From the NCBI GenBank assembly GCA_951406725.2, contig OX597822.1, positions 112,592,001 through 112,656,000 of the forward strand: a stretch of DNA of 64,000 nt, written 5' to 3'. The position numbers and the translations under genes were made by a program. The notes beneath the pieces were generated by a model. That model saw only the letters and a list, made by a program, of their open reading frames with translations. It did not search any database and was not told where the DNA came from. Of this stretch, positions 2,458 to 45,100 are shown piece by piece; within the stretch, counting starts at the first letter, position 1; the number at the start of each line of letters is the position of its first letter. Source of the stretch: Octopus vulgaris. Taxonomy: Eukaryota.

Positions 2458-4773
2458 TATATTGTTGATAAATATCACAAAACAATCCTTTCTTTATATC
2501 CTATTGATCTTCAGTTACTTTGTTTTCTTCCATCTTTGCCAGAATATTCATGTCCCATGTGAGTGTTGGGTAATCTTTAATCTCAATAATGTTGAAACTA
2601 TTGTGTTGTGAACTTACCTCTTGTTACAAGCAGGTTCGTTTTCTCAGTTTCATGAAATACTTTTCTAATTGTCTTAGCAGACTCAGAAATATGCCAGTGA
2701 AACAATCTGGGAATAATTTACAGCATTAAACTGTTATTTCCAGCAGAAAGATCCACTTCCCACACAAATTAATCCAATTAATAGAGAAACTAGAAGTGAA
2801 TATCATCATCATCAAAGATCAATAAAGCTCCCTGTGGTTCCCTGAAAGATGAATTAAAACAATGTTTTATCTATTTGTAAGATGATCTCTTTACTTATCT
2901 TTTGATAGTCTTTTTGTATAATATCTAATGTACAGAGAAATAACCAATGCCATATAATTTGTATTAAAACTATATAATAACTTAAATAGTTTATATAACG
3001 TTTGGAATTATGAAGGGCATCCAGCTGTGGAAACTCTGCCAGATCAAGATTGGAGCCTGGTGCAGCTATCTGGTTCGCCAGTCCTCAGTCAAATTGTCCA
3101 ACCCATGCTAGCATGGAAAGTGGACGTTAAACGATGATGATGATATTACGCACACACACACATCATTGTTTTAATGTCCACTTTTCTGCTGGCAGAAGTC
3201 AGAATTTGTTGAGGCAGATTTTTACGGCTGAATGCCCTTCCTATTGACAACACTCACTTGTTTTCGTTTAAGGTAATATTTCCCCATAGCCAGAAGATTG
3301 GAAACAAAGAACCCTGTTAGTTGTAAATGAGTGTAAACATCATATTATCATGACAAGAACACACACACACCAGACGGGTTTCTTTCAATTTTTTTTCTAC
3401 CAAATCCATTCATAAGGCCTTGTCTGATTTGGAGCTTTAATAGAAGACCCTTTTCCAAGGTACCAAGTAATGGGACTGAACCTGAAACCATAAGAAGGGA
3501 ACTTCTTAACCACACAACCATGCCTGTCTATGTGTGTGTGTATATATATATATCCAGCAATTTTTTACTAGCTTCATCTTGTCTCTTTGTTTTCTCTCCG
3601 TGTTTGCGATATGGACAATTAAGGTGGTTTTAGAGTCAGATCATGGCTGCTATTTTCAGCATGGTGGTATCTCGTAGATACCCTAATTTATACTTTTTAA
3701 TATATATATATCTATATATATATATCTATGAGAGAGAGAGAGAGAGATACACACGCATACAAGCATTGCTAAAGAAAAAAATAGCTATAGTGCAAAAATA
3801 AGTAAAACAAAACACAAAACAAGCAGTGTAGTAGTAGTATTTAAGTAGAGTCTAAGAGTTTTGTAACTGATGGTGTGTTAGTCATTGGAATATTTAAAAA
3901 CATTAATTCACAAGACTCATTCAGTTGAAAGAATGTAACATTTGTAAAATTATGAAAAGAACAAGTTGTAATATCTGAACATTTACATACTGTGAGAGCA
4001 AAATATTTTTATGGTTGGATGCTCTTATCACACATCACTGAATACATTGGATTACTAAAATATTCCAAGTCTCTTAAAGCGTTTGGGAAGGAATTGTCAC
4101 AGCTGGTCAATCTGATAGTGTTCTACTGCCAGTCGACTCTTCAATCATTCACATTCTACACAGGCTTCAGGCTCTTTGTACAAAGGGAGTAAAAACAATT
4201 AATACCACAATCCATACGTTTTTCAATTGTATTTTAATAGTTTTACATATTTTCCTGCATTAATATGGTGGTGGGTGATTATGTCAGTGCAGGTGAAACC
4301 TATTGTCAGTCAGGTATACCAAAGCAAGCAGCATAATTCATCTTGAATAAGGGAATACCAACCATAACAAAGATTGAACTTATAGCCACAAGGTTGGTAG
4401 TTCAAAACTTGCAATATTTTCACTGAAACACTGAAAGTTTCTTTCAAAAACAAATCAACAGAAACAAACATTTTGAAAAAAAAAAAAAATGTAACAAATT
4501 CACTGATTGGTTATGGTATTGAAACTGAACTAGTTTCATACCTGCCAGGACTGACTGTGCATTTCAGTACCCTTGGGTTATAAATAAAGTTACTACTTTA
4601 ATACAAAGGTGACAACCAAATTATTACGTTGAGGTTTTTCCCTTTTAATCACTTCAATAAAATAGCAGGCCTTTTGTGATTAATAAAATAACTAATTATT
4701 GAATATCAGTAAGTTGACAACCAAATGTTGACACATGTTGATGTTAATTTTATGAATGGTAAGTATATTCATC

Positions 4774-14126: not shown

Positions 14127-17100
14127 CTGAAAAAGAGAGAGAAATAAAATAAACAAATGTATATTTGGAAAAGTATAAGAGATTGCTAGTTAATAAGAGA
14201 CTGCTAGTTAATACAAATGTACATTTGGAAAAGTATAAGAGATTGCTAGTTAATACAAATGTACATTTGGAAAAGTATAAGAGATTGCTAGTTAATAAGA
14301 GACTGCTAGTTAATACAAATGTACATTTGGAAAAGTATAAGAGATTGCTAGTTAATACAAATGTACATTTGGAAAAGTATAAGAGACTGCTAGTTAATAA
14401 GAGACTGCTAGTTAATACAAATGTACATTTGGAAAAGTATAAGAGATTGCTAGTTAATACAAATGTATATTTGGAAAAGTATAAGAGACTGCTAGTTAAT
14501 AAGAGACTGCTAGTTAATACAAATGTACATTTGGAAAAGTATAAGAGATTGCTAGTTAATAAGAGACTGCTAGTTAATACAAATACAAATGTACATTTGG
14601 AAAAGTATAAGAGATTGCTAGTTAATACAAATGTATATTTGGAAAAGTATAAGAGACTGCTAGTTAATAAGAGACTGCTAGTTAATACAAATGTACATTT
14701 GGAAAAGTATAAGAGATTGCTAGTTAATAAGAGACTGCTAGTTAATACAAATGTACATTTGGAAAAGTATAAGAGATTGCTAGTTAATACAAATGTATAT
14801 TTGGAAAAGTATAAGAGACTGCTAGTTAATAAGAGATTGCTAGTTAATACAAATGTACATTTGGAAAAGTATAAGAGATTGCTAGTTAATAAGAGACTGC
14901 TAGTTAATACAAATGTACATTTGGAAAAGTATAAGAGATTGCTAGTTAATACAAATGTATATTTGGAAAAGTATAAGAGACTGCTAGTTAATAAGAGACT
15001 GCTAGTTAATACAAATGTACATTTGGAAAAGTATAAGAGATTGCTAGTTAATACAAATGTATATTTGGAAAAGTATAAGAGACTGCTAGTTAATAAGAGA
15101 CTGCTAGTTAATACAAATGTACATTTGGAAAAGTATAAGAGATTGCTAGTTAATACAAATGTATATTTGGAAAAGTATAAGAGACTGCTAGTTAATAAGA
15201 GACTGCTAGTTAATACAAATGTACATTTGGAAAAGTATAAGAGATTGCTAGTTAATACAAATGTATATTTGGAAAAGTATAAGAGAGTTAATACAAATGC
15301 TAGTTAATAAGAGACTGCTAGTTAATACAAATGTACATTTGGAAAAGTATAAGAGATTGCTAGTTAATACAAATGTATATTTGGAAAAGTATAAGAGACT
15401 GCTAGTTAATAAGAGACTGCTAGTTAATACAAATGTACATTTGGAAAAGTATAAGAGATTGCTAGTTAATACAAATGTATATTTGGAAAAGTATAAGAGA
15501 TTGCTAGTTAATAAGAGACTGCTAGTTAATACAAATGTACATTTGGAAAAGTATAAGAGATTGCTAGTTAATACAAATGTATATTTGGAAAAGTATAAGA
15601 GATTGCTAGTTAATAAGAGACTGCTAGTTAATACAAATGTACATTTGGAAAAGTATAAGAGATTGCTAGTTAATACAAATGTATATTTGGAAATGTATAA
15701 GAGACTGCTAGTTAATAAGAGACTGCTAGTTAATACAAATGTACATTTGGAAAAGTATAAGAGATTGCTAGTTAATACAGAGACTGTATAGTTGGAATAC
15801 ATAAGAGATTTGCTAAAGTTAATAAGAGACTGCTAGTTAATACAAATGTACATTTGGAAAAGTATAAGAGATTGCTAGTTAATACAAATGTATATTTGGA
15901 AAAGTATAAGAGACTGCTAGTTAATAAGAGAGACTCTGCTAGTTAATACAAATGTACATTTGGAAAAGTATAAGAGATTGCTAGTTAATACAAATGTATA
16001 TTTGGAAAAGTATAAGAGACTGCTAGTTAATAAGAGACTGCTAGTTAATACAAATGTACATTTGGAAAAGTATAAGAGATTGCTAGTTAATACAAATGTA
16101 TATTTGGAAAAGTATAAGAGATTGCTAGTTAATAAGAGACTGCTAGTTAATACAAATGTACATTTGGAAAAGTATAAGAGATTGCTAGTTAATACAAATG
16201 TATATTTGGAAAAGTATAAGAGACTGCTAGTTAATAAGAGACTGCTAGTTAATACAAATGTACATTTGGAAAAGTATAAGAGATTGCTAGTTAATAAGAG
16301 ACTGCTAGTTAATACATTTGGAAAAGTATAAGTAGTTAATACATGTTGGAAAAGTATAAGAGATTAGCTAGTTAATACAAATGTACATTTGGAAAAGTAT
16401 AAGAGATTGCTAGTTAATACAAATGTATATTTGGAAAAGTATAAGAGACTGCTAGTTAATAAGAGACTGCTAGTTAATACAAATGTACATTTGGAAAAGT
16501 ATAAGAGATTGCTAGTTAATAAGAGACTGCTAGTTAATATAAATGTACATTTGGAAAAGTATAAGAGATTGCTAGTTAATACAAATGTATATTTGGAAAA
16601 GTATAAGAGACTGCTAGTTAATAAGAGACTGCTAGTTAATACAAATGTACATTTGGAAAAGTATAAGAGATTGCTAGTTAATACAAATGTATATTTGGAA
16701 AAGTATAAGAGACTGCTAGTTAATAAGAGACTGCTAGTTAATACAAATGTACATTTGGAAAAGTATAAGAGATTGCTAGTTAATACAAATGTATATTTAA
16801 GGAAAAGTATAAGAGACTGCTAGTTAATAAGAGACTGCTAGTTAATACAAATGTACATTTGGAAAAGTATAAGAGATTGCTAGTTAATAAGAGACTGCTA
16901 GTTAATACAAATGTACATTTGGAAAAGTATAAGAGATTGTTAATAAAGACTAATACAAATGTACATTTGGAAAAGTATAAGAGACTGCTAGTTAATACAA
17001 ATGTACATTTGGAAAAGTATAAGAGATTGCTAGTTAATAAGAGACAGTTAATACAAATGTACATTTGGAAAAGTATAAGAGATTGCTAGTTAATAAGAGA

Positions 17101-20100
17101 CTGCTAGTTAATACAAATGTACATTTGGAAAAGTATAAGAGATTGCTAGTTAATACAAATGTACATTTGGAAAAGTATAAGAGACTGCTAGTTAATACAA
17201 ATGTATATTTGGAAAAGTATAAGAGATTGCTAGTTAATACAAATGTACATTTGGAAAAGTATAAGAGATTGCTAGTTAATAAGAGACTGCTAGTTAATAC
17301 AAATGTACATTTGGAAAAGTATAAGAGATTGCTAGTTAATAAGAGACTGCTAGTTAATACAAATGTACATTTGGAAAAGTATAAGAGATTGCTAGTTAAT
17401 AAGAGACTGCTAGTTAATACAAATGTACATTTGGAAAAGTATAAGAGATTGCTAGTTAATAAGAGACTGCTAGTTAATACAAATGTACATTTGGAAAAGT
17501 ATAAGAGACTGCTAGTTAATACAAATGTACATTTGGAAAAGTATAAGAGATTGCTAGTTAATAAGAGATTGCTAGTTAATACAAATGTACATTTGGAAAA
17601 GTATAAGAGATTGCTAGTTAATAAGAGACTGCTAGTTAATACAAATGTACATTTGGAAAAGTATAAGAGATTGCTAGTTAATAAGAGACTGCTAGTTAAT
17701 ACAAATGTACATTTGGAAAAGTATAAGAGATTGCTAGTTAATAAGAGACTGCTAGTTAATACAAATGTACATTTGGAAAAGTATAAGAGACTGCTAGTTA
17801 ATACAAATGTACATTTGGAAAAGTATAAGAGATTGCTAGTTAATAAGAGATTGCTAGTTAATACAAATGTACATTTGGAAAAGTATAAGAGATTGCTAGT
17901 TAATAAGAGACTGCTAGTTAATACAAATGTACATTTGGAAAAGTATAAGAGATTGCTAGTTAATAAGAGACTGCTAGTTAATACAAATGTACATTTGGAA
18001 AAGTATAAGAGACGGCTAGTTAATAAGAGACTGCTAGTTAATACAAATGTACATTTGGAAAAGTATAAGAGACTGCTAGTTAATAAGAGACTGCTAGTTA
18101 ATACAAATGTACATTTGGAAAAGTATAAGAGACTGCTAGTTAATACAAATGTACATTTGGAAAAGTATAAGAGATTGCTAGTTAATAAGAGACTGCTAGT
18201 TAATACAAATGTACATTTGGAAAAGTATAAGAGATTGCTAGTTAATAAGAGACTGCTAGTTAATACAAATGTACATTTGGAAAAGTATAAGAGATTGCTA
18301 GTTAATAAGAGACTGCTAGTTAATACAAATGTACATTTGGAAAAGTATAAGAGATTGCTAGTTAATAAGAGACTGCTAGTTAATACAAATGTACATTTGG
18401 AAAAGTATAAGAGATGGCTAGTTAATAAGAGACTGCTAGTTAATACAAATGTACATTTGGAAAAGTATAAGAGACTGCTAGTTAATACAAATGTACATTT
18501 GGAAAAGTATAAGAGACGGCTAGTTAATAAGAGACTGCTAGTTAATACAAATGTACATTTGGAAAAGTATAAGAGACTGCTAGTTAATACAAATGTACAT
18601 TTGGAAAAGTATAAGAGATGGCTAGTTAATAAGAGACTGCTAGTTAATACAAATGTATATTTGGAAAAGTATAAGAGATTGCTAGTTAATAAGAGACTGC
18701 TAGTTAATACAAATGTACATTTGGAAAAGTATAAGAGATTGCTATTTAATAAGAGACTGCTAGTTAATACAAATGTACATTTGGAAAAGTATAAGAGATT
18801 GCTAGTTAATAAGAGACTGCTAGTTAATACAAATGTACATTTGGAAAAGTATAAGAGACTGCTAGTTAATACAAATGTACATTTGGAAAAGTATAAGAGA
18901 CTGCTAGTTAATACAAATGTACATTTGGAAAAGTATAAGAGATTGCTAGTTAATAAGAGACTGCTAGTTAATACAAATGTACATTTGGAAAAGTATAAGA
19001 GATTGCTATTTAATAAGAGACTGCTAGTTAATACAAATGTACATTTGGAAAAGTATAAGAGATTGCTAGTTAATAAGAGACTGCTAGTTAATACAAATGT
19101 ACATTTGGAAAAGTATAAGAGACTGCTAGTTAATACAAATGTACATTTGGAAAAGTATAAGAGACTGCTAGTTAATACAAATGTACATTTGGAAAAGTAT
19201 AAGAGACTGCTAGTTAATAAGAGACTGCTAGTTAATACAAATGTACATTTGGAAAAGTATAAGAGACTGCTAGTTAATAAGAGACTGCTAGTTAATACAA
19301 ATGTACATTTGGAAAAGTATAAGAGATTGCTAGTTAATAAGAGACTGCTAGTTAATACAAATGTACATTTGGAAAAGTATAAGAGATTGCTAGTTAATAA
19401 GAGACTGCTAGTTAATACAAATGTACATTTGGAAAAGTATAAGAGATTGCTAGTTAATAAGAGACTGCTAGTTAATACAAATGTACATTTGGAAAAGTAT
19501 AAGAGACTGCTAGTTAATAAGAGACTGCTAGTTAATACAAATGTACATTTGGAAAAGTATAAGAGATTGCTAGTTAATAAGAGACTGCTAGTTAATACAA
19601 ATGTACATTTGGAAAAGTATAAGAGATTGCTAGTTAATAAGAGACTGCTAGTTAATACAAATGTACATTTGGAAAAGTATAAGAGATTGCTAGTTAATAA
19701 GAGACTGCTAGTTAATACAAATGTACATTTGGAAAAGTATAAGAGATTGCTAGTTAATAAGAGACTGCTAGTTAATACAAATGTACATTTGGAAAAGTAT
19801 AAGAGACGGCTAGTTAATAAGAGACTGCTAGTTAATACAAATGTATATTTGGAAAAGTATAAGAGACTGCTAGTTAATACAAATGTATATTTGGAAAAGT
19901 ATAAGAGACGGCTAGTTAATAAGAGACTGCTAGTTAATACAAATGTATATTTGGAAAAGTATAAGAGACTGCTAGTTAATACAAATGTACATTTGGAAAA
20001 GTATAAGAGACGGCTAGTTAATGTAAAATAACTATGCAATAGATTATGCGAATGAATTTAAATCATTGAATTGAAAATCGTATACCTCCATTTAATATTC

Positions 20101-32756: not shown

Positions 32757-35700
32757 ACATATATATATGAAAAAGGCTTGGAAATGCCTTTATGAAGACT
32801 GCTGAATGTAGAAAATGTGTGGGAAGAGGAGAGTCTGCCACATGTTGACCAAACTGAGGGACTGGCTACCTGAATCGACAGTTCTATGGCAGATAAAGTA
32901 ATTAAGGGTATGAAGACAGGAAAAACTCCCAGCCCAGGAAGAAGCACCATTGATGCTATATTTCTAGTGAGGCAGTAACAGAAGAAATACATTGGACTTT
33001 GTTGGCTTGGAGAAGGCCTTTGACAGGGTTCCCTATACCTTATCTTGTGGTCAATGTGGAAACTAGGGATAGACATGTGGTTGGTGATGTACAGGGATGC
33101 TACCAGTAAGGTGAGGGTTGACAATGAGTACAACAAAAAATTCAGAGAAGTAGGGGTCCACCAAGTATTAGTACTCAGTCCCCTCTTGTTCATCATAGTC
33201 CTTCAGGCAATAACAGAAGAATTCAAGACAGGCTGCCCCTGGGAGGTCCTCTATGTTGAGGACCTTGCTTTTATAGCTGAATCACTACCTGAACTAAAGA
33301 AGGAGTTCCAGGTATGGAAGCAAGCCCTAGAATCAATGGGCCTTAGAGTTAACCTAGTAAAATCAAAGTCTTGGTAAGTAGAAAGGCAGACAAATCACAA
33401 ATCCCTTCATGTAGATATCCTTGCTTGATCTGTAGAAAAGGCCTAGGTAGACACTCCATAAAATGCACCCAGTGTAAGCTTTAGACACATAAAAGGTGCA
33501 GCAATATCAGAGGAAGGTTAACAGGGAAACTAGCTTTTGTATGTGGAAGATGCACAGGTACAATAAACGCTGAAAATGAGCCAAAAATAGACTCCATCAA
33601 CTGCCAGTGGGGAAAGCTAGAGGTAGTAGATAGCTTCTGTTATGTAAGTGACCAAGTTAGTAGTGGAGGTGGATGCTCTGAGAGCGTAGCTGTGAAAATA
33701 AGATTAGGCCAGGCAAAGTTCAGGGAGCTCCTAGCCCGGATGGCAACAAAGGGCCTCTCTCTCAGAGTGAAAGGCAGATTGTTTGATGCCTCTGTGCAAG
33801 CAGCTATGCTGCATGGCAATGAAACATGGGCTGTTACAGCCGACGATATGCATAAGCTTGAAAGAAACGAAGCCAGTATACTTTGCTGGATGTGTAATGT
33901 CAGTGTGCATGTTTGACAGAGTGTAAGCATCTTGAGGGAAAAGTTAGGAATAAGAGGCCTCAGATGTAGTGTGCAAGAGAGACGACTGTGTTGATATGGT
34001 CATGTGATGTGTATGGACGAGGGCAACTGTGTAAAGAAGTGCCGATCTCTAACTGTGGAAGGAACATGTGGTAGAGGTTGACCCAGGAAGACATAGGACA
34101 AGGTGGTGAAGCATGATCTTTGAACTTTGAGCCTCGTAGAGGCAATGACTGGTGACCGAGACCTTTGGTGATGTGCTGTGCTTGAGAGAATCCATCAAGC
34201 CAAGTGCATTGGTGCTGGTGGCACATAAAGAACACCTTTCAAGCATTGGGCTTCTATTCTTTATTAAGACAAAATGGTTCCTTTTGAGCGTTGGGCCTCA
34301 CAGAGGCAATGACCAAGACCTTTGGCATTATGTCATGCTTGAGAAGAAGACCCATGAAGCCGAGCAAAATTGTAATCATAGAAGATACTGGTGTCATGCA
34401 AATTGGCACCTGTGACAGTGGCGCATAAAAGCACCCCAATGTCATGCAAATGGAACCCGTGCCAGCAGAACGTAACAGACCCACTACACTCTCAGAGTGG
34501 TTGGCATTGGGAAGGGCATCCAGTCATAGAAAACCATGCCAAATCAGATTGGAGTCTGGTGCAGCCTTCCAGCATGCCGGCTTGATCAAACTGAATAAAG
34601 GTCAATACGGTTGAGTGAACATGTTTAGTTACAATCAAAGCACTCCAAATTTAATCTGTCTGGTGGCAGAGTGGACAGGAGTCGTTTGTATGCAGTCCAG
34701 TGGCTAAAGTTTAGGTCGTTTTAAGAACTAAAACAAATACTACTTAAAAGACAATATCCATTAAAGCTAACAGACAACGAAATAGAAAATGCCCAAACAA
34801 TAAATATCCAAGAACTACAAAAAACCACACTCCAGATACATCCAATGATCTACTCTTTATTACAACTCACAACTCAAAAAATACAGAGGTTTACAATATT
34901 ATCCACCAGAACATTTCACTACTAAGACAAGACCCAAGAATGAAACAAGCATATGAAATACGCAAAATTATCAAAAGTGAAAGACAATCAAAGTCCCTTA
35001 AAAAATTCCTCACAAGTGCCAAATTACCTTCCACAACTCCTACGGCAACAGTCAAAAGATTCCTATCTGTATTTCTTGAGTTGTGAGTTGTAATAAAGAG
35101 TAGATCATTGGATGTATCTGGAGCGTGGTTTTTTGTGGTTCTTGGATATTTATTGTTTTGGCATTTTCTATTCCGTTGTCTGATAGCTTTAATGGATATT
35201 GTCTTTTAAGTATTTGTTTTAGTTCTTAAAGCAACCTAAACTTTAGCCACTGGACTACATACAAACGACCCCTGTCCACTCTTCCACCAGACAGATTAAG
35301 TTTGGAGTGCCTTGATTGAAGCTAAACATGTTCACTCAACTGTATCGGCTTGCATTTTAGGTGCAAATTATACGGTTACGTGACGCTAATGCATGTACGT
35401 AGTGGAAAACATACGGAAGGTTCTAAAACTTAATCGTGTGTTCATCCTCTACAAACACTTGACAGAAAACATTCAGGTCGTAGATCATTTAGTACTACCA
35501 CTAGACTCGTTCAGTCAACCGTGTCAGCCTTGACTTACCAGGCTAAACATTGTTACTTGATACTAACACACGGATGTAGTGGGGAACCTACAAAAATTTC
35601 TAAGACCTGTCATGTGACTGTCCTCTACCAATCAAACCCTATTCAAAACATATACTAGTTTGAGCCATGAACTTCCTATGAAAATAGGGCAAGCTTCAAA

Positions 35701-42100: not shown

Positions 42101-45100
42101 ACTACACTCTCAGAGTGGTTGGCGTTAGGAAGGGCATCCAGCTGTAGAAACTCTGCCAGATCAGATTGGAGTCTGATTCGCCAGACCTCAGTCAAATCGT
42201 CCAACCCATGCTAGCATGGAAAGCGGACGTTAAACAATGATGATGATGATGATGTTACATATACAGTTTGATATTATTACTGTTATACAGTAATAATAAT
42301 AATGTTATAAAGAAATAATAATAGTTATGAAGGAATAATAATACAGGCTGGCGCCAAACTATTCTATAATCTGATATCATTGTTGCAGTGATAATGTTTC
42401 AAATGTAAGAGAATAAAACTGCATCACTCTGTAAAAGTATCTTGGAAAACAGAAAACATTGTTAGGGAGAGATTAATAATGATTTACCCTTTGAAGAATG
42501 AGGACCAGAGACGGTATAACTTTCTCTCTTGATTCCTCTAAATAGAAAAGTATTTTGGGTGAACGTATAAAAATCTTTGTTTTGCCATATTCCACTTCTG
42601 GACTGAAATTATGTTCTGTTACGATTTCCTTGACCCCTTGTTTCACTGCACCATTATAGTTGGGCCAGGTTGCTGAGCAAATACATTTATATCTGGAAGA
42701 TAGAGGAAATTTAGTCAAAGAAACTGTGATATTTTGTATCATTTAAAGATAAGCAGTCAAACATATATATATATATATGTTTTGTTCCAATATATCAACA
42801 ACAATCATGAAATAATGATTTAATAAATTTAGCTATAGTGAGTAAATCTTCAACTTCAATTCACAATTCATATAAAATTGAAATCAAAATCAAAGTGAAG
42901 TTCAATGACGGGCACGAGCACCATACGAGCATGATCGTTGACTGAGCAGCTAACCGGCTTCCGTGCCAGTGGCACATAAAAGGCAACAATTAAAGGGTGA
43001 TCGTTACCAGCTTTGCCTTATTGGCACTTGTGCCCCGTGCTAGTAGGGTGCTAAGAGCACCATCTGGGCATGATTGTTGCCAGAGCAGCCTACTGGCTTC
43101 CATGCTGGTGACATGTAAGAGGCACCATTCGAGCGGGATCATTACCAATGTCACCTTACTGGCACCTGTGCCAGTGGCATGTGTAAAAAAGATTCGAGTG
43201 AGGTTGTTGCCAGCACCACCTGACTGGGCCCCCGTGCCAGTGGCATGTAAAAAAAGCACCCACGACACTCTCAGAGTGGTTGGCGTTAGGAAGGGCATCC
43301 AGCTGTAGAAACTCTGCCAGAACAAGATTGAAGCCTGGTGCAGCCATCTGGTTCGCCAGCCGTCAGTCAAAATCGTCTAACCCATGCCAGCATGGAAAAC
43401 GGACGTTAAACGACGATGATGATGATGATATATATTAGTTTATAATATGAGAGTGCATAAAAGTAGCATTAGTGTTATTGTGAAGTTGGTGAGAACACAC
43501 AGTCATGTGTATGTACATTATTAGCAAGAACATGCTATTGAACATTTATCGCAACTCAAAGGGTGCTTCAGATAGGAGTGCTACATTTTCAGACCTATAT
43601 ATACAGCATATATGGAGGCGCAATGGCCCAGTGGTTAGGGCAGCGGACTCGCGGTCGGAGGATCGCGGTTTCGATTCCCAGACCGGGCGTTGTGAGTGTT
43701 TATTGAGCGAAAACACCTAAAAGCTCCACGAGGCTCCGGCAGGGGTTGGTGATCCCTGCTGTACTCTTTCACCACTCTTTCTCCCACTCTTTCTTCTGTT
43801 GGCCTGCTCGCTTAGCCAGCGGGGTGGCGTCATTCAAAGGCTAAAACAATGCGAACGCATTGTGACCAGCGATGTGTAACTACATCTGATGGTCTGGTCG
43901 GTCACGTGATCACGTGATATACAGCATATACAACTTGGTGATTATACACTTATTTTTTTTTTACTTCTAATTAAATGTTTGGTTTTAATTTATTTTATGT
44001 ATTTTCTGAAAATATATATGTTTACGAAGGCTTTACAAGCATCTTCAGCTAGCAGGCCATGCTACACCAGACTGATGATGAGCAAAACTCAGAAACATGC
44101 AGGTCTCTGGATGCATGCTTAGCTGGATGGGGGTGTTTGTCTCCCCTTTGTAAACATAAGGAAATGTGTCAAAGCCGACAGGAAGCGTCGATGCTTCCTA
44201 GGGCTAAATAGTGGTGGTGTGATTCCCTTTGTGGGACTGTCACGTTAAGTTGACAGTATACAACCGCTCTATCATTCCACCACCACTCATATCTCTCTGA
44301 GATATTTAGAAATCTAATATTTCTAATATATATTTTCTGTCCCATTAATAAACATATTCGACTCTGAATGTGCATTTAGTTTCCAAAAACGATGCTCATC
44401 TCCAATTGGGGAGGTGATGTGATGACATTGGGATGTGTAATAAGTTTTTAATATGAACATGTTTATTAAACTCACCTACTAAGAAATCTGGTATATGTTG
44501 ATCTAAAGGCAAAACCAGCTCTGCGGACTCTGACATTTTCCATTAATCCAAGATACATCACTTGATGACGGATTCTTTCATCGTCAAAGTGTACGGGAGA
44601 TTTGATATCATTTGGCTTGATACATCGCACATAATGGGGTTCCTACAGCAGAAACGGAGCACAACCAATTAGAAGAACTTCAAAGTAAAACAAACTATGT
44701 GGGGGGAAAAAAAAAGGTGGGCGTCATGGAAGATTTGGTTAGTAAAATTATAGTGTCAGAATTTTTTCAGTCTCAAAATTTACTTGTTTATAAATGTTGT
44801 TTGATTCTACACCCTTATTGTAGTAAATTAGTAAAAAACACAACATATTTCGTGACCAATATTCAAATTTCAAGAGATAAACAGGACACGACCATCATGC
44901 TTCAAATATTAATCAACTAGCAATATCGCCCGGTGTTGCTCGGGTTTGTTTCAACCCTTTAGAATTGAAATTTTTGGAAAGTAAAAATTTTGTATTATGT
45001 AGCTTGTTATTCTCATTAAGTGAACATTTTTCTGGTTGAAATACACTGAAAAATGGCGACACAGAAGTAAAAAAATCGTAAAAAAATAGGGATTTTCATA

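What the first reader, a model, noticed from the sequence alone, without database searches (positions are those of the whole stretch)
44040..44420. Hairpin-packed ~350-nt element behind the ribozyme: candidate cephalopod retrozyme or circular RNA family
Seen: the ribozyme is followed by a dense run of stem-loops in a GC-richer, ORF-poor island. These include ggggg-tgtttgt-ctccc, ggaagc-gtcgat-gcttcc, a multibranch closed by gtggtgg/ccaccac holding tccc-tttgt-ggga and ctgtca-cgttaagt-tgacag, then atatctc/gagatat, ttagaaat/atttctaa and catctcc/ggaggtg. It matches none of the SINE families in the window. Known: non-LTR retrozymes are non-coding repeats of a few hundred nt with one type I hammerhead per monomer that yield small circular RNAs and are proposed to be mobilised by Penelope-like elements. 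Inference: this is a solo monomer of such a family, which I do not know to be described in octopus.
Basis: partly seen in the sequence, partly recalled or inferred. Interest (0 to 1): 0.75.

Follow-up and report, generated by a model that had tools for sequence, protein, structure and literature searches.

The report
Octopus retrozyme carrying its own promoter
This is a cut-short copy of a protein-free jumping repeat found in hundreds to thousands of places in this genome; it carries a predicted self-cutting RNA motif and likely spread as a small RNA circle pasted in by Penelope-type enzymes, a kind of element already known from mussels and salamanders.

Summary
Real, and of a known kind. Window 44006-44327 (+) is a solo, 5'-truncated copy (m1-329) of a 354-nt unit with one type I hammerhead: a non-LTR retrozyme family (610 exact 22-mer hits; about 3,000 copies estimated). 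It lies antisense in a myosin-I intron and has a 9-bp target duplication. Insertions carry the Penelope footprint: 84 of 86 arm ends sit at two fixed sites, and 23 of 25 inverted insertions use one of each. The unit has the U1/U2-gene motif ATCAGT about 57 nt ahead of where L1/Tx1-type elements insert, which points to an upstream snRNA-type promoter. The rod pairs sequence upstream of that inferred start with sequence behind the cleavage site, so the selected RNA is likely a circle or multimer. This copy lacks the motif and is probably dead. Cleavage, circularity, the start site and the partner enzyme are untested; no partner was found. The scan has reported the same Penelope footprint, and the promoter/LINE lead, for other octopus retrozyme families.

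The parts
44006..44327 (+). 5'-truncated solo retrozyme copy, unit positions m1-m329 of a 354-nt unit (unit defined on L004:1477-1830); 6.9% from the family majority; lacks m330-354 and 7 nt near 44158
44000..44008 (+). left copy of a 9-bp target-site duplication (tattttctg); the last 3 nt overlap the element start
44331..44339 (+). right copy of the 9-bp target-site duplication
44017..44028 (+). 5' strand of the outer rod helix (m12-23); lies upstream of the inferred transcription start; pairs with 44147-44158 and shows compensatory changes at 4 pairs
44035..44046 (+).
44040..44049 (+). inferred transcription-start zone of the family (m35-44): start of the target duplications of inserted L1/Tx1-type elements, 56-58 nt behind ATCAGT in intact copies
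   Evidence: inference; no RNA 5' end seen
44067..44110 (+). type I hammerhead: stem I 44067-44071/44106-44110, core CUGAUGA 44072-44078, stem II 44080-44090, GAAA 44092-44095, stem III 44095-44104 (third pair broken by T>G at 44102 in this copy), predicted cleavage after C44105
44147..44158 (+). 3' strand of the outer rod helix (m142-153)
44180..44199 (+). GGAAGC/GCUUCC hairpin; 97% of cells paired across the family
44210..44287 (+). multibranch closed by GUGGUGG/CCACCAC, holding the UCCC/GGGA and CUGUCA/UGACAG hairpins
44271..44273 (+). fixed insertion end A (m273-275), in an AC-rich loop; likely internal reverse-transcription start
44289..44326 (+). two AU-rich hairpins within the 'tail' between ends A and B
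44327..44327 (+). fixed insertion end B (m329), used by this copy
44476..44642 (-). 167-nt exon of a class I myosin gene (AG/GT borders); the element lies antisense in the following intron

Best explanation
This is a promoterless, truncated copy of a non-autonomous retrozyme family whose 354-nt unit is likely transcribed from an snRNA-type promoter in the preceding unit, predicted to cut itself at each hammerhead, likely closed into a circle, and likely copied into AT-rich DNA by a Penelope-type reverse transcriptase/endonuclease from two fixed internal start points. Shown from sequence: the family, the unit length, partial tandems, the hammerhead fold with covariation, the two fixed ends, the A+B pairing of inverted arms, 8-15-bp target duplications, the ATCAGT motif shared with U1/U2 genes, and a covarying rod. 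Inferred: the start site (from where LINEs insert), cleavage, the partner class and the circle. The argument for the circle is that the promoter lies outside the transcript, so a linear route loses one promoter per generation, whereas a ligated unit keeps promoter, ribozyme and both start points on one template.
For: Family: 610 exact hits of a 22-mer, 0 for the reversed control; 3185 and 2661 first-look candidates. Unit 351-355 nt between cleavage sites in 4 real units, circular-fold z -4.1 to -12.5. Hammerhead, 58 copies: 91.5% of cells paired, 14 of 26 pairs with double changes, 0 of 500 shuffles as high, slid controls 18-41% paired; core 0.95 and GAAA 0.98 conserved against 0.83-0.94 in the other regions (ATCAGT apart). 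Census of 61 of the 62 C1+C2 loci holding the 22-mer: 84 of 86 arm ends at A or B; 25 inverted, 23 of them A+B (binomial p 2.6e-6). This matches the PLE tail and inversion layout (PMC8557442 passages) and the two internal RT starts of anole Poseidon (PMC11167929, main text read). Non-simple duplications >=8 bp in 30 of 100 loci against a control mean of 4.9, max 12; (TA)5 in a flank at 30 of 60 census loci. Units within one locus are 93.3% alike against 88-89% between loci (49 of 51 inverted and 47 of 49 tandem comparisons above background, not independent). ATCAGT at -57 to -61 in 20 of 20 U1 and 17 of 20 U2 loci; at -56 to -58 from the LINE target duplication in 7 of 10 family sites, with a one-base variant in the other 3. 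Outer rod m12-23/m142-153: 76 double-change cells in 5 of 12 pairs, shuffle max 43; 2-6 switches per pair on a tree. Two related hammerhead families show the same rod with other letters (read by eye). 36 of 61 census loci run through the cleavage site, 25 include sequence upstream of the inferred start and 20 hold the motif.
Against: No RNA-level evidence: cleavage, cap site and circle are unseen. In a Xenopus test only 1 of 9 predicted retrozyme dimers cleaved (bioRxiv 10.64898/2026.07.22.740005), and anole Poseidon uses uncleaved RNA in vitro (PMC11167929). No autonomous partner shares sequence with the unit. ATCAGT is only 6 nt, sits in a hairpin, and is absent from a third related family. 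A TATA-like stretch at -26 to -32 leaves the polymerase open; 0 of 20 U6 loci have ATCAGT. Some LINE insertions start at m51-56, not m35-44. Only 5 of 61 census loci hold two or more hammerheads. Rod compensation could arise partly from DNA-level correction of inverted repeats, and the shuffles ignore relatedness. Most 3' hairpins hardly vary, so they give no covariation support. No sampled copy is closer than 2.5% to the majority (median 7.5%), so current activity is not shown.
Confidence: 0.6

Rival explanations
1. The same non-autonomous, PLE-mobilised family, but copied from linear, uncleaved read-through multimers (or by template jumping), with no functional circle; the hammerhead is a weak or late-acting passenger.
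For: Anole Poseidon inserts from uncleaved RNA and its hammerhead mutants insert normally (PMC11167929). Every sequence observation here (junction-crossing copies, rod covariation, shared variants within a locus) is also possible on a dimeric linear RNA. Palindromic loop III points to slow, dimer-dependent cleavage (axolotl precedent, PMC7229834).
Against: A linear route from an upstream promoter loses one promoter per generation and needs long source arrays, yet only 5 of 61 census loci have two or more hammerheads and no array longer than about 4 units was seen. Arm 5' ends do not pile up at the inferred start (5 of 147 at m34-41) or at the cleavage site (3 of 147 at m102-103). Long arrays were not searched for genome-wide.
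Confidence: 0.27
2. Truncated pseudo-LTR ends of an unidentified protein-coding Penelope-like element.
For: Ends, inversions and (TA)n targets are exactly PLE-like; PLEs are abundant in the genome.
Against: The unit joins to itself (18 of 61 census loci cross the m354/m1 junction), leaving no room for an ORF; no PLE coding sequence is joined to it in 120 loci; the intact PLE family examined shares no sequence with it.
Confidence: 0.06
3. A SINE-like repeat mobilised by an ordinary LINE, or a minisatellite amplified at the DNA level.
For: 5' truncation, inversions and 8-15-bp duplications also occur with L1-type enzymes; L1/Tx1-type elements are physically associated with the family.
Against: No poly(A) or simple-repeat tail belongs to the unit. 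Inverted arms overlap and end at two different fixed sites, unlike L1 twin priming (recalled). The LINEs sit inside the unit with their own duplications, and the opposite arm often shows the empty site. Copies are dispersed over most large contigs.
Confidence: 0.05
4. A domesticated intronic ribozyme regulating the myosin-I gene.
For: The catalytic core is intact, and the 5' insertion junction is shared with a run labelled organism C.
Against: It is antisense to the host gene; it diverges from the majority like any other copy (6.9% against a median of 7.5%); stem III and one hairpin are damaged.
Confidence: 0.02

Closest known systems
Metazoan non-LTR retrozymes (coral, mussel, axolotl: Cervera and de la Pena 2020, PMC7229834, passages plus sections 14 and 17 read, supplement not readable; vertebrate survey: bioRxiv 10.64898/2026.07.22.740005, parts 1-3 of 5 read)
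   Same: Non-coding unit of 150-450 bp (354 here; mussel 350-390, axolotl 330/350), one type I hammerhead per unit, GC below 50% (0.41-0.43), tandem and solo copies, duplications longer than 4 bp, self-paired circular fold; palindromic loop III as in axolotl HHR_Amex1.
   Different: Host not covered in the text read; mostly truncated solos and short partial tandems rather than long arrays; two fixed ends and A+B inverted arms are not described in the passages read; RNA circles and cleavage were shown there and are untested here.
EN+ Penelope-like elements (Poseidon/Neptune): Craig et al. 2021, PMC8557442 (passages); anole Poseidon, Frangieh et al. 2024, PMC11167929 (abstract, main text, part of methods)
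   Same: Partial tandems, inverted 5'-truncated arm, tail at one end only, two internal RT starts behind a hammerhead, AT-rich and (TA)n targets.
   Different: No ORF; the tail is about 55 nt rather than 30-40; the hammerhead has a long stem I inside a rod; no sequence match to the PLEs examined.
Newt satellite 2 (Coats, Zhang and Epstein 1994; not held, seen only as a citing sentence and reference in PMC2220036)
   Same: Hammerhead repeat driven by an snRNA-type promoter, so this promoter type has a precedent among retrozymes.
   Different: Promoter shown by experiment there, inferred here from a 6-nt motif and LINE insertion sites; dispersed PLE-type insertions here.
Target-preferring Tx1-clade LINEs and ORF1-only HAL1 elements (PMC4494074, PMC5753468; passages)
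   Same: The elements inserted into this family have L1/Tx1-type domains (APE, RT, zf-RVT, CCHC ORF1) or ORF1 only, 14-21-bp duplications and a target preference.
   Different: Their targets here share a promoter-proximal position (three hammerhead families, U2 +1, 26-30 nt behind TATA boxes) rather than one sequence; the clade was not tested by a tree.

Membership tests
non-LTR retrozyme | one type I hammerhead per unit | tested here: met
   motif, conservation and covariation; no Rfam match
non-LTR retrozyme | non-coding unit of 150-450 bp, GC below 50% | tested here: met
   351-355 nt, GC 0.41-0.43; no ORF of 100 aa at the site
non-LTR retrozyme | multicopy, with tandem units carrying consecutive hammerheads | tested here: met
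   610 exact 22-mer hits; dimers to about 4 units; 5 of 61 census loci with two or more hammerheads; the window copy is solo
non-LTR retrozyme | no LTR layout; duplications longer than 4 bp | tested here: met
   PBS and PPT were not searched for separately
non-LTR retrozyme | self-cleavage of the RNA | not testable with these tools
   3 of 147 arm 5' ends at m102-103 is too weak to count
non-LTR retrozyme | accumulation as unit-length circular RNA | not testable with these tools
   only contigs of runs guessed to be RNA were available
autonomous Penelope-like element | RT plus GIY-YIG ORF joined to the pLTR | tested here: not met
PLE-mobilised element | partial tandems, inverted arm, tail at one end, two fixed ends | tested here: met
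PLE-mobilised element | an autonomous partner sharing pLTR sequence | tested here: inconclusive
   none among 30 loci plus 10 regions from one PLE query and one further PLE copy; other PLE families were not surveyed
snRNA-type transcription unit | PSE about 55-60 nt upstream of the start | tested here: inconclusive
   6-nt motif shared with 37 of 40 U1/U2 loci at matching distance; the start site itself is inferred; 0 of 20 U6 loci have it

The most novel reading that the evidence does not exclude
The circle is obligatory: hammerhead cleavage and ligation are how an element with an upstream snRNA promoter packs that promoter into its own RNA. A dimeric Penelope enzyme then primes both nicked target strands on one circle, one at site A and one at site B. 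The A/B region acts as a portable signal that lets Penelope machinery copy any RNA ending in it, including LINE-retrozyme chimeras up to about 7 kb (L105, L080), while a start-site-seeking L1/Tx1 family parasitises the retrozyme promoter.
Probability: 0.35. Interest if true: 0.75.

Novelty: new member of a known kind. Interest (0 to 1): 0.48.

Why it matters
The class is known, and a new host alone matters little. The value is that the link between animal retrozymes and Penelope-like elements has rested on co-occurrence and pLTR similarity, and the function of PLE and retrozyme hammerheads is called unclear in the papers read. This family supplies base-precise predictions: a promoter motif, a start zone, a cleavage site, two RT start points and a covarying rod that spans the start. 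These make both the circle and the Penelope partnership testable with one 354-nt construct. If the A/B region is a portable signal, it would also be a compact cargo tag for Penelope-based insertion.

Tried and rejected
Rfam gave no hammerhead hit. RNAalifold on the hammerhead alignment recovered only stem I plus a weak hairpin; the named-structure count was used instead. Expression: no RNA holder listed. Contigs of six runs guessed to be RNA cover the family, mostly its 3' half, in the same pattern as the two large runs of unrecorded kind; they show no ends, strand or circle and are not counted for or against. An empty-site allele in another organism was sought and not found: the organism C run bridges the 5' junction, and its contig at the 3' junction falls just short of the 31-letter rule. 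Partner search: a PLE fragment in the window led to an intact two-ORF PLE family with no similarity to the unit; a Neptune-like copy beside two family ends (L106, L064) shares only (TA)n targets. The idea that unit plus ORF1 is the parent element was rejected: the ORF1 elements have their own 14-21-bp duplications, occur at unrelated targets, and the opposite arm often has the empty site. The Atlas look-up for ORF1 returned nothing usable. 5' ends do not cluster at the cleavage site or start zone (starts at m1-9 are inflated by the query boundary and by selection). U6 loci did not settle the polymerase. Literature: searches for retrozyme+octopus, hammerhead/cephalopod/octopus/Penelope and hammerhead+octopus+circular RNA+ribozyme listed no description of an octopus retrozyme. 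PMC13282606 (O. vulgaris repeats; passages) has no 'hammerhead' or 'ribozyme'; PMC10886601 mentions both words only apart. The supplements of PMC7229834 and of the bioRxiv preprint could not be seen and may list cephalopod motifs; Repbase and Dfam were not available.

Full report
Observation. A type I hammerhead motif is present at 44067-44110, although Rfam does not score it. The boundaries were off. Searches of the own genome with the region gave 3185 first-look candidates, 40 of them scored, all ending at about window 44320-44337, and alignments extend upstream to 44006. The element is 44006-44327, flanked by a 9-bp duplication. A myosin-head exon on the minus strand at 44642-44476, with AG/GT borders and best matches to class I myosins, places the element antisense in an intron.

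The family. Tandem loci define a 354-nt unit (L004); the window copy is m1-m329. An exact 22-mer occurs 610 times. With about 92% conservation in that region this suggests roughly 3,000-3,500 segments, which is an estimate. Segments are a median 7.5% from the column majority, the closest 2.5%, the window copy 6.9% (134 segments), so the sampled family is not young. Four real units cut from cleavage site to cleavage site are 351-355 nt and fold strongly as circles.

The ribozyme. In 58 copies the named hammerhead structure is 91.5% paired, with double changes at 14 of 26 pairs; shuffled and slid controls fall short (these controls ignore relatedness). Core and GAAA are the most conserved parts. 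Stem III is short with a self-complementary loop that switches between three palindromic forms, as in the dimer-dependent axolotl motif (PMC7229834). The window copy keeps the core but has lost the third pair of stem III. Cleavage is predicted, not shown.

How it inserts. I took 61 of the 62 loci on contigs C1 and C2 that hold the exact 22-mer (one not fetched). Of 86 arm ends, 84 lie at site A (m262-282, mostly 273-275) or site B (m318-335, mostly 329). Of 25 inverted insertions, 23 have one arm ending at A and the other at B (p 2.6e-6). Selection by the 22-mer forces at least one end beyond m258 but not onto two points. Eighteen loci cross the unit junction and 5 hold two or more hammerheads. 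Non-simple duplications of 8 bp or more occur at 30 of 100 loci against 4.9 in mismatched controls, and half of the census loci touch (TA)n. Units within one insertion are more alike than units of different loci, which fits a single template, though later conversion could do the same. This is the PLE layout of Craig et al. (PMC8557442): partial tandems, an inverted truncated arm, a tail at one end only. The two ends match the two internal RT starts of anole Poseidon, which cuts and extends both strands (PMC11167929). No partner PLE was found by sequence.

Promoter and start site. Following interrupted copies led to an abundant ORF1-only element (13,464 candidates) and full L1/Tx1-type LINEs inserted just 5' of the hammerhead core with 14-21-bp duplications. 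Fifteen of the 30 best ORF1 loci are flanked by this family (the query came from such a locus, so this is biased). Other copies sit ahead of two related hammerhead families, 26-30 nt behind TATA boxes (7 of 23 sites examined), and a related LINE end abuts +1 of 2 of 20 U2 loci. That suggests they mark transcription starts. An earlier AI note (e1-10118797) proposed an snRNA promoter for another family, and I tested it here. ATCAGT lies at -57 to -61 in 20 of 20 U1 and 17 of 20 U2 loci and in 0 of 20 U6 loci. In this family it is at m337-342, 56-58 nt before the LINE duplication in 7 of 10 sites, with a one-base variant in the other 3. Against: the motif is short, sits in a hairpin, is missing from the third family, and some LINE insertions start at m51-56. 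Newt satellite 2 is a published precedent (seen only as a citation in PMC2220036). The window copy starts at m1 and lacks the motif.

Why a circle is likely. With the true 5' end, the unit forms a rod around the hammerhead. Its outer helix pairs m12-23 with m142-153 and carries repeated A-U/G-C switches. m12-23 lies upstream of the inferred start, so the RNA under selection must include it: a multimer or a circle. Thirty-six of 61 census loci run through the cleavage site and 25 include sequence upstream of the start. Arm 5' ends show no pile-up at either place (5 and 3 of 147). If the promoter is upstream, each linear generation loses one promoter, and arrays seen here are short. A ligated unit avoids that loss. 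This is inference; uncleaved linear multimers or template jumping remain the main rival. The sequencing-run data available could not address it.

Comparison and verdict. It meets every sequence-level feature of a non-LTR retrozyme that could be tested and fails the test for an autonomous PLE. Cleavage and circular RNA could not be tested. Three literature searches listed no octopus retrozyme, but supplements and repeat databases were not seen. The scan itself has noted the same Penelope footprint in several other octopus families; those are unchecked AI notes and no independent support. Verdict: a new member of a known kind, represented here by a probably dead copy, with useful base-level predictions for promoter, circle and partner. 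Interest 0.48.

Noticed in passing
L061-L104 (for example L064:1111-2460, arrays L096, L097): Abundant ORF1-only (CCHC knuckle, about 450 aa) L1/Tx1-type element of 1.5-1.7 kb, many copies intact and in head-to-tail arrays; targets lie at apparent transcription starts of retrozymes, TATA promoters and other such elements.
   Followed up: partly
L105:957-8297; L080; L073: LINE-retrozyme chimeras in PLE-type layout: both inverted arms carry the LINE 3' part plus the retrozyme and end near A and B; L105 spans about 7.3 kb with a 14-bp duplication.
   Followed up: partly
L004:2390-2900, L069, L074, L087, L089, L090, L093 (second family); L084, L085, L091, L092, L094, L100 (third family): Two further hammerhead repeat families with the same order of parts (promoter-side hairpin, rod, hammerhead, AU-rich end) and variant cores such as UUGACGA and UUGACAA.
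   Followed up: partly
L067-L079, L095, L099: A subfamily of this family has CCGAUGA (U4C) in the hammerhead core and is the one most often hit by ORF1 elements.
   Followed up: no
L230 and L237: A LINE 3' end directly abuts +1 of two U2 snRNA copies and replaces their upstream promoter region.
   Followed up: partly
L155-L162: Young PLE family with an upstream ORF (about 450 aa) and an RT ORF (776 aa frame), long inverted ends and a degenerate minimal hammerhead-like motif.
   Followed up: partly
window 34690-35350: Head-to-head inverted fragment of a PLE coding region.
   Followed up: partly
window 14150-20050: About 5.9-kb minisatellite array with long open frames on both strands.
   Followed up: no
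window 44476-44642 (-): Exon of a class I myosin gene; the other exons were not mapped.
   Followed up: partly
L112 junction: A few GGGTTA-type telomere-like repeats at the junction between inverted arms.
   Followed up: no
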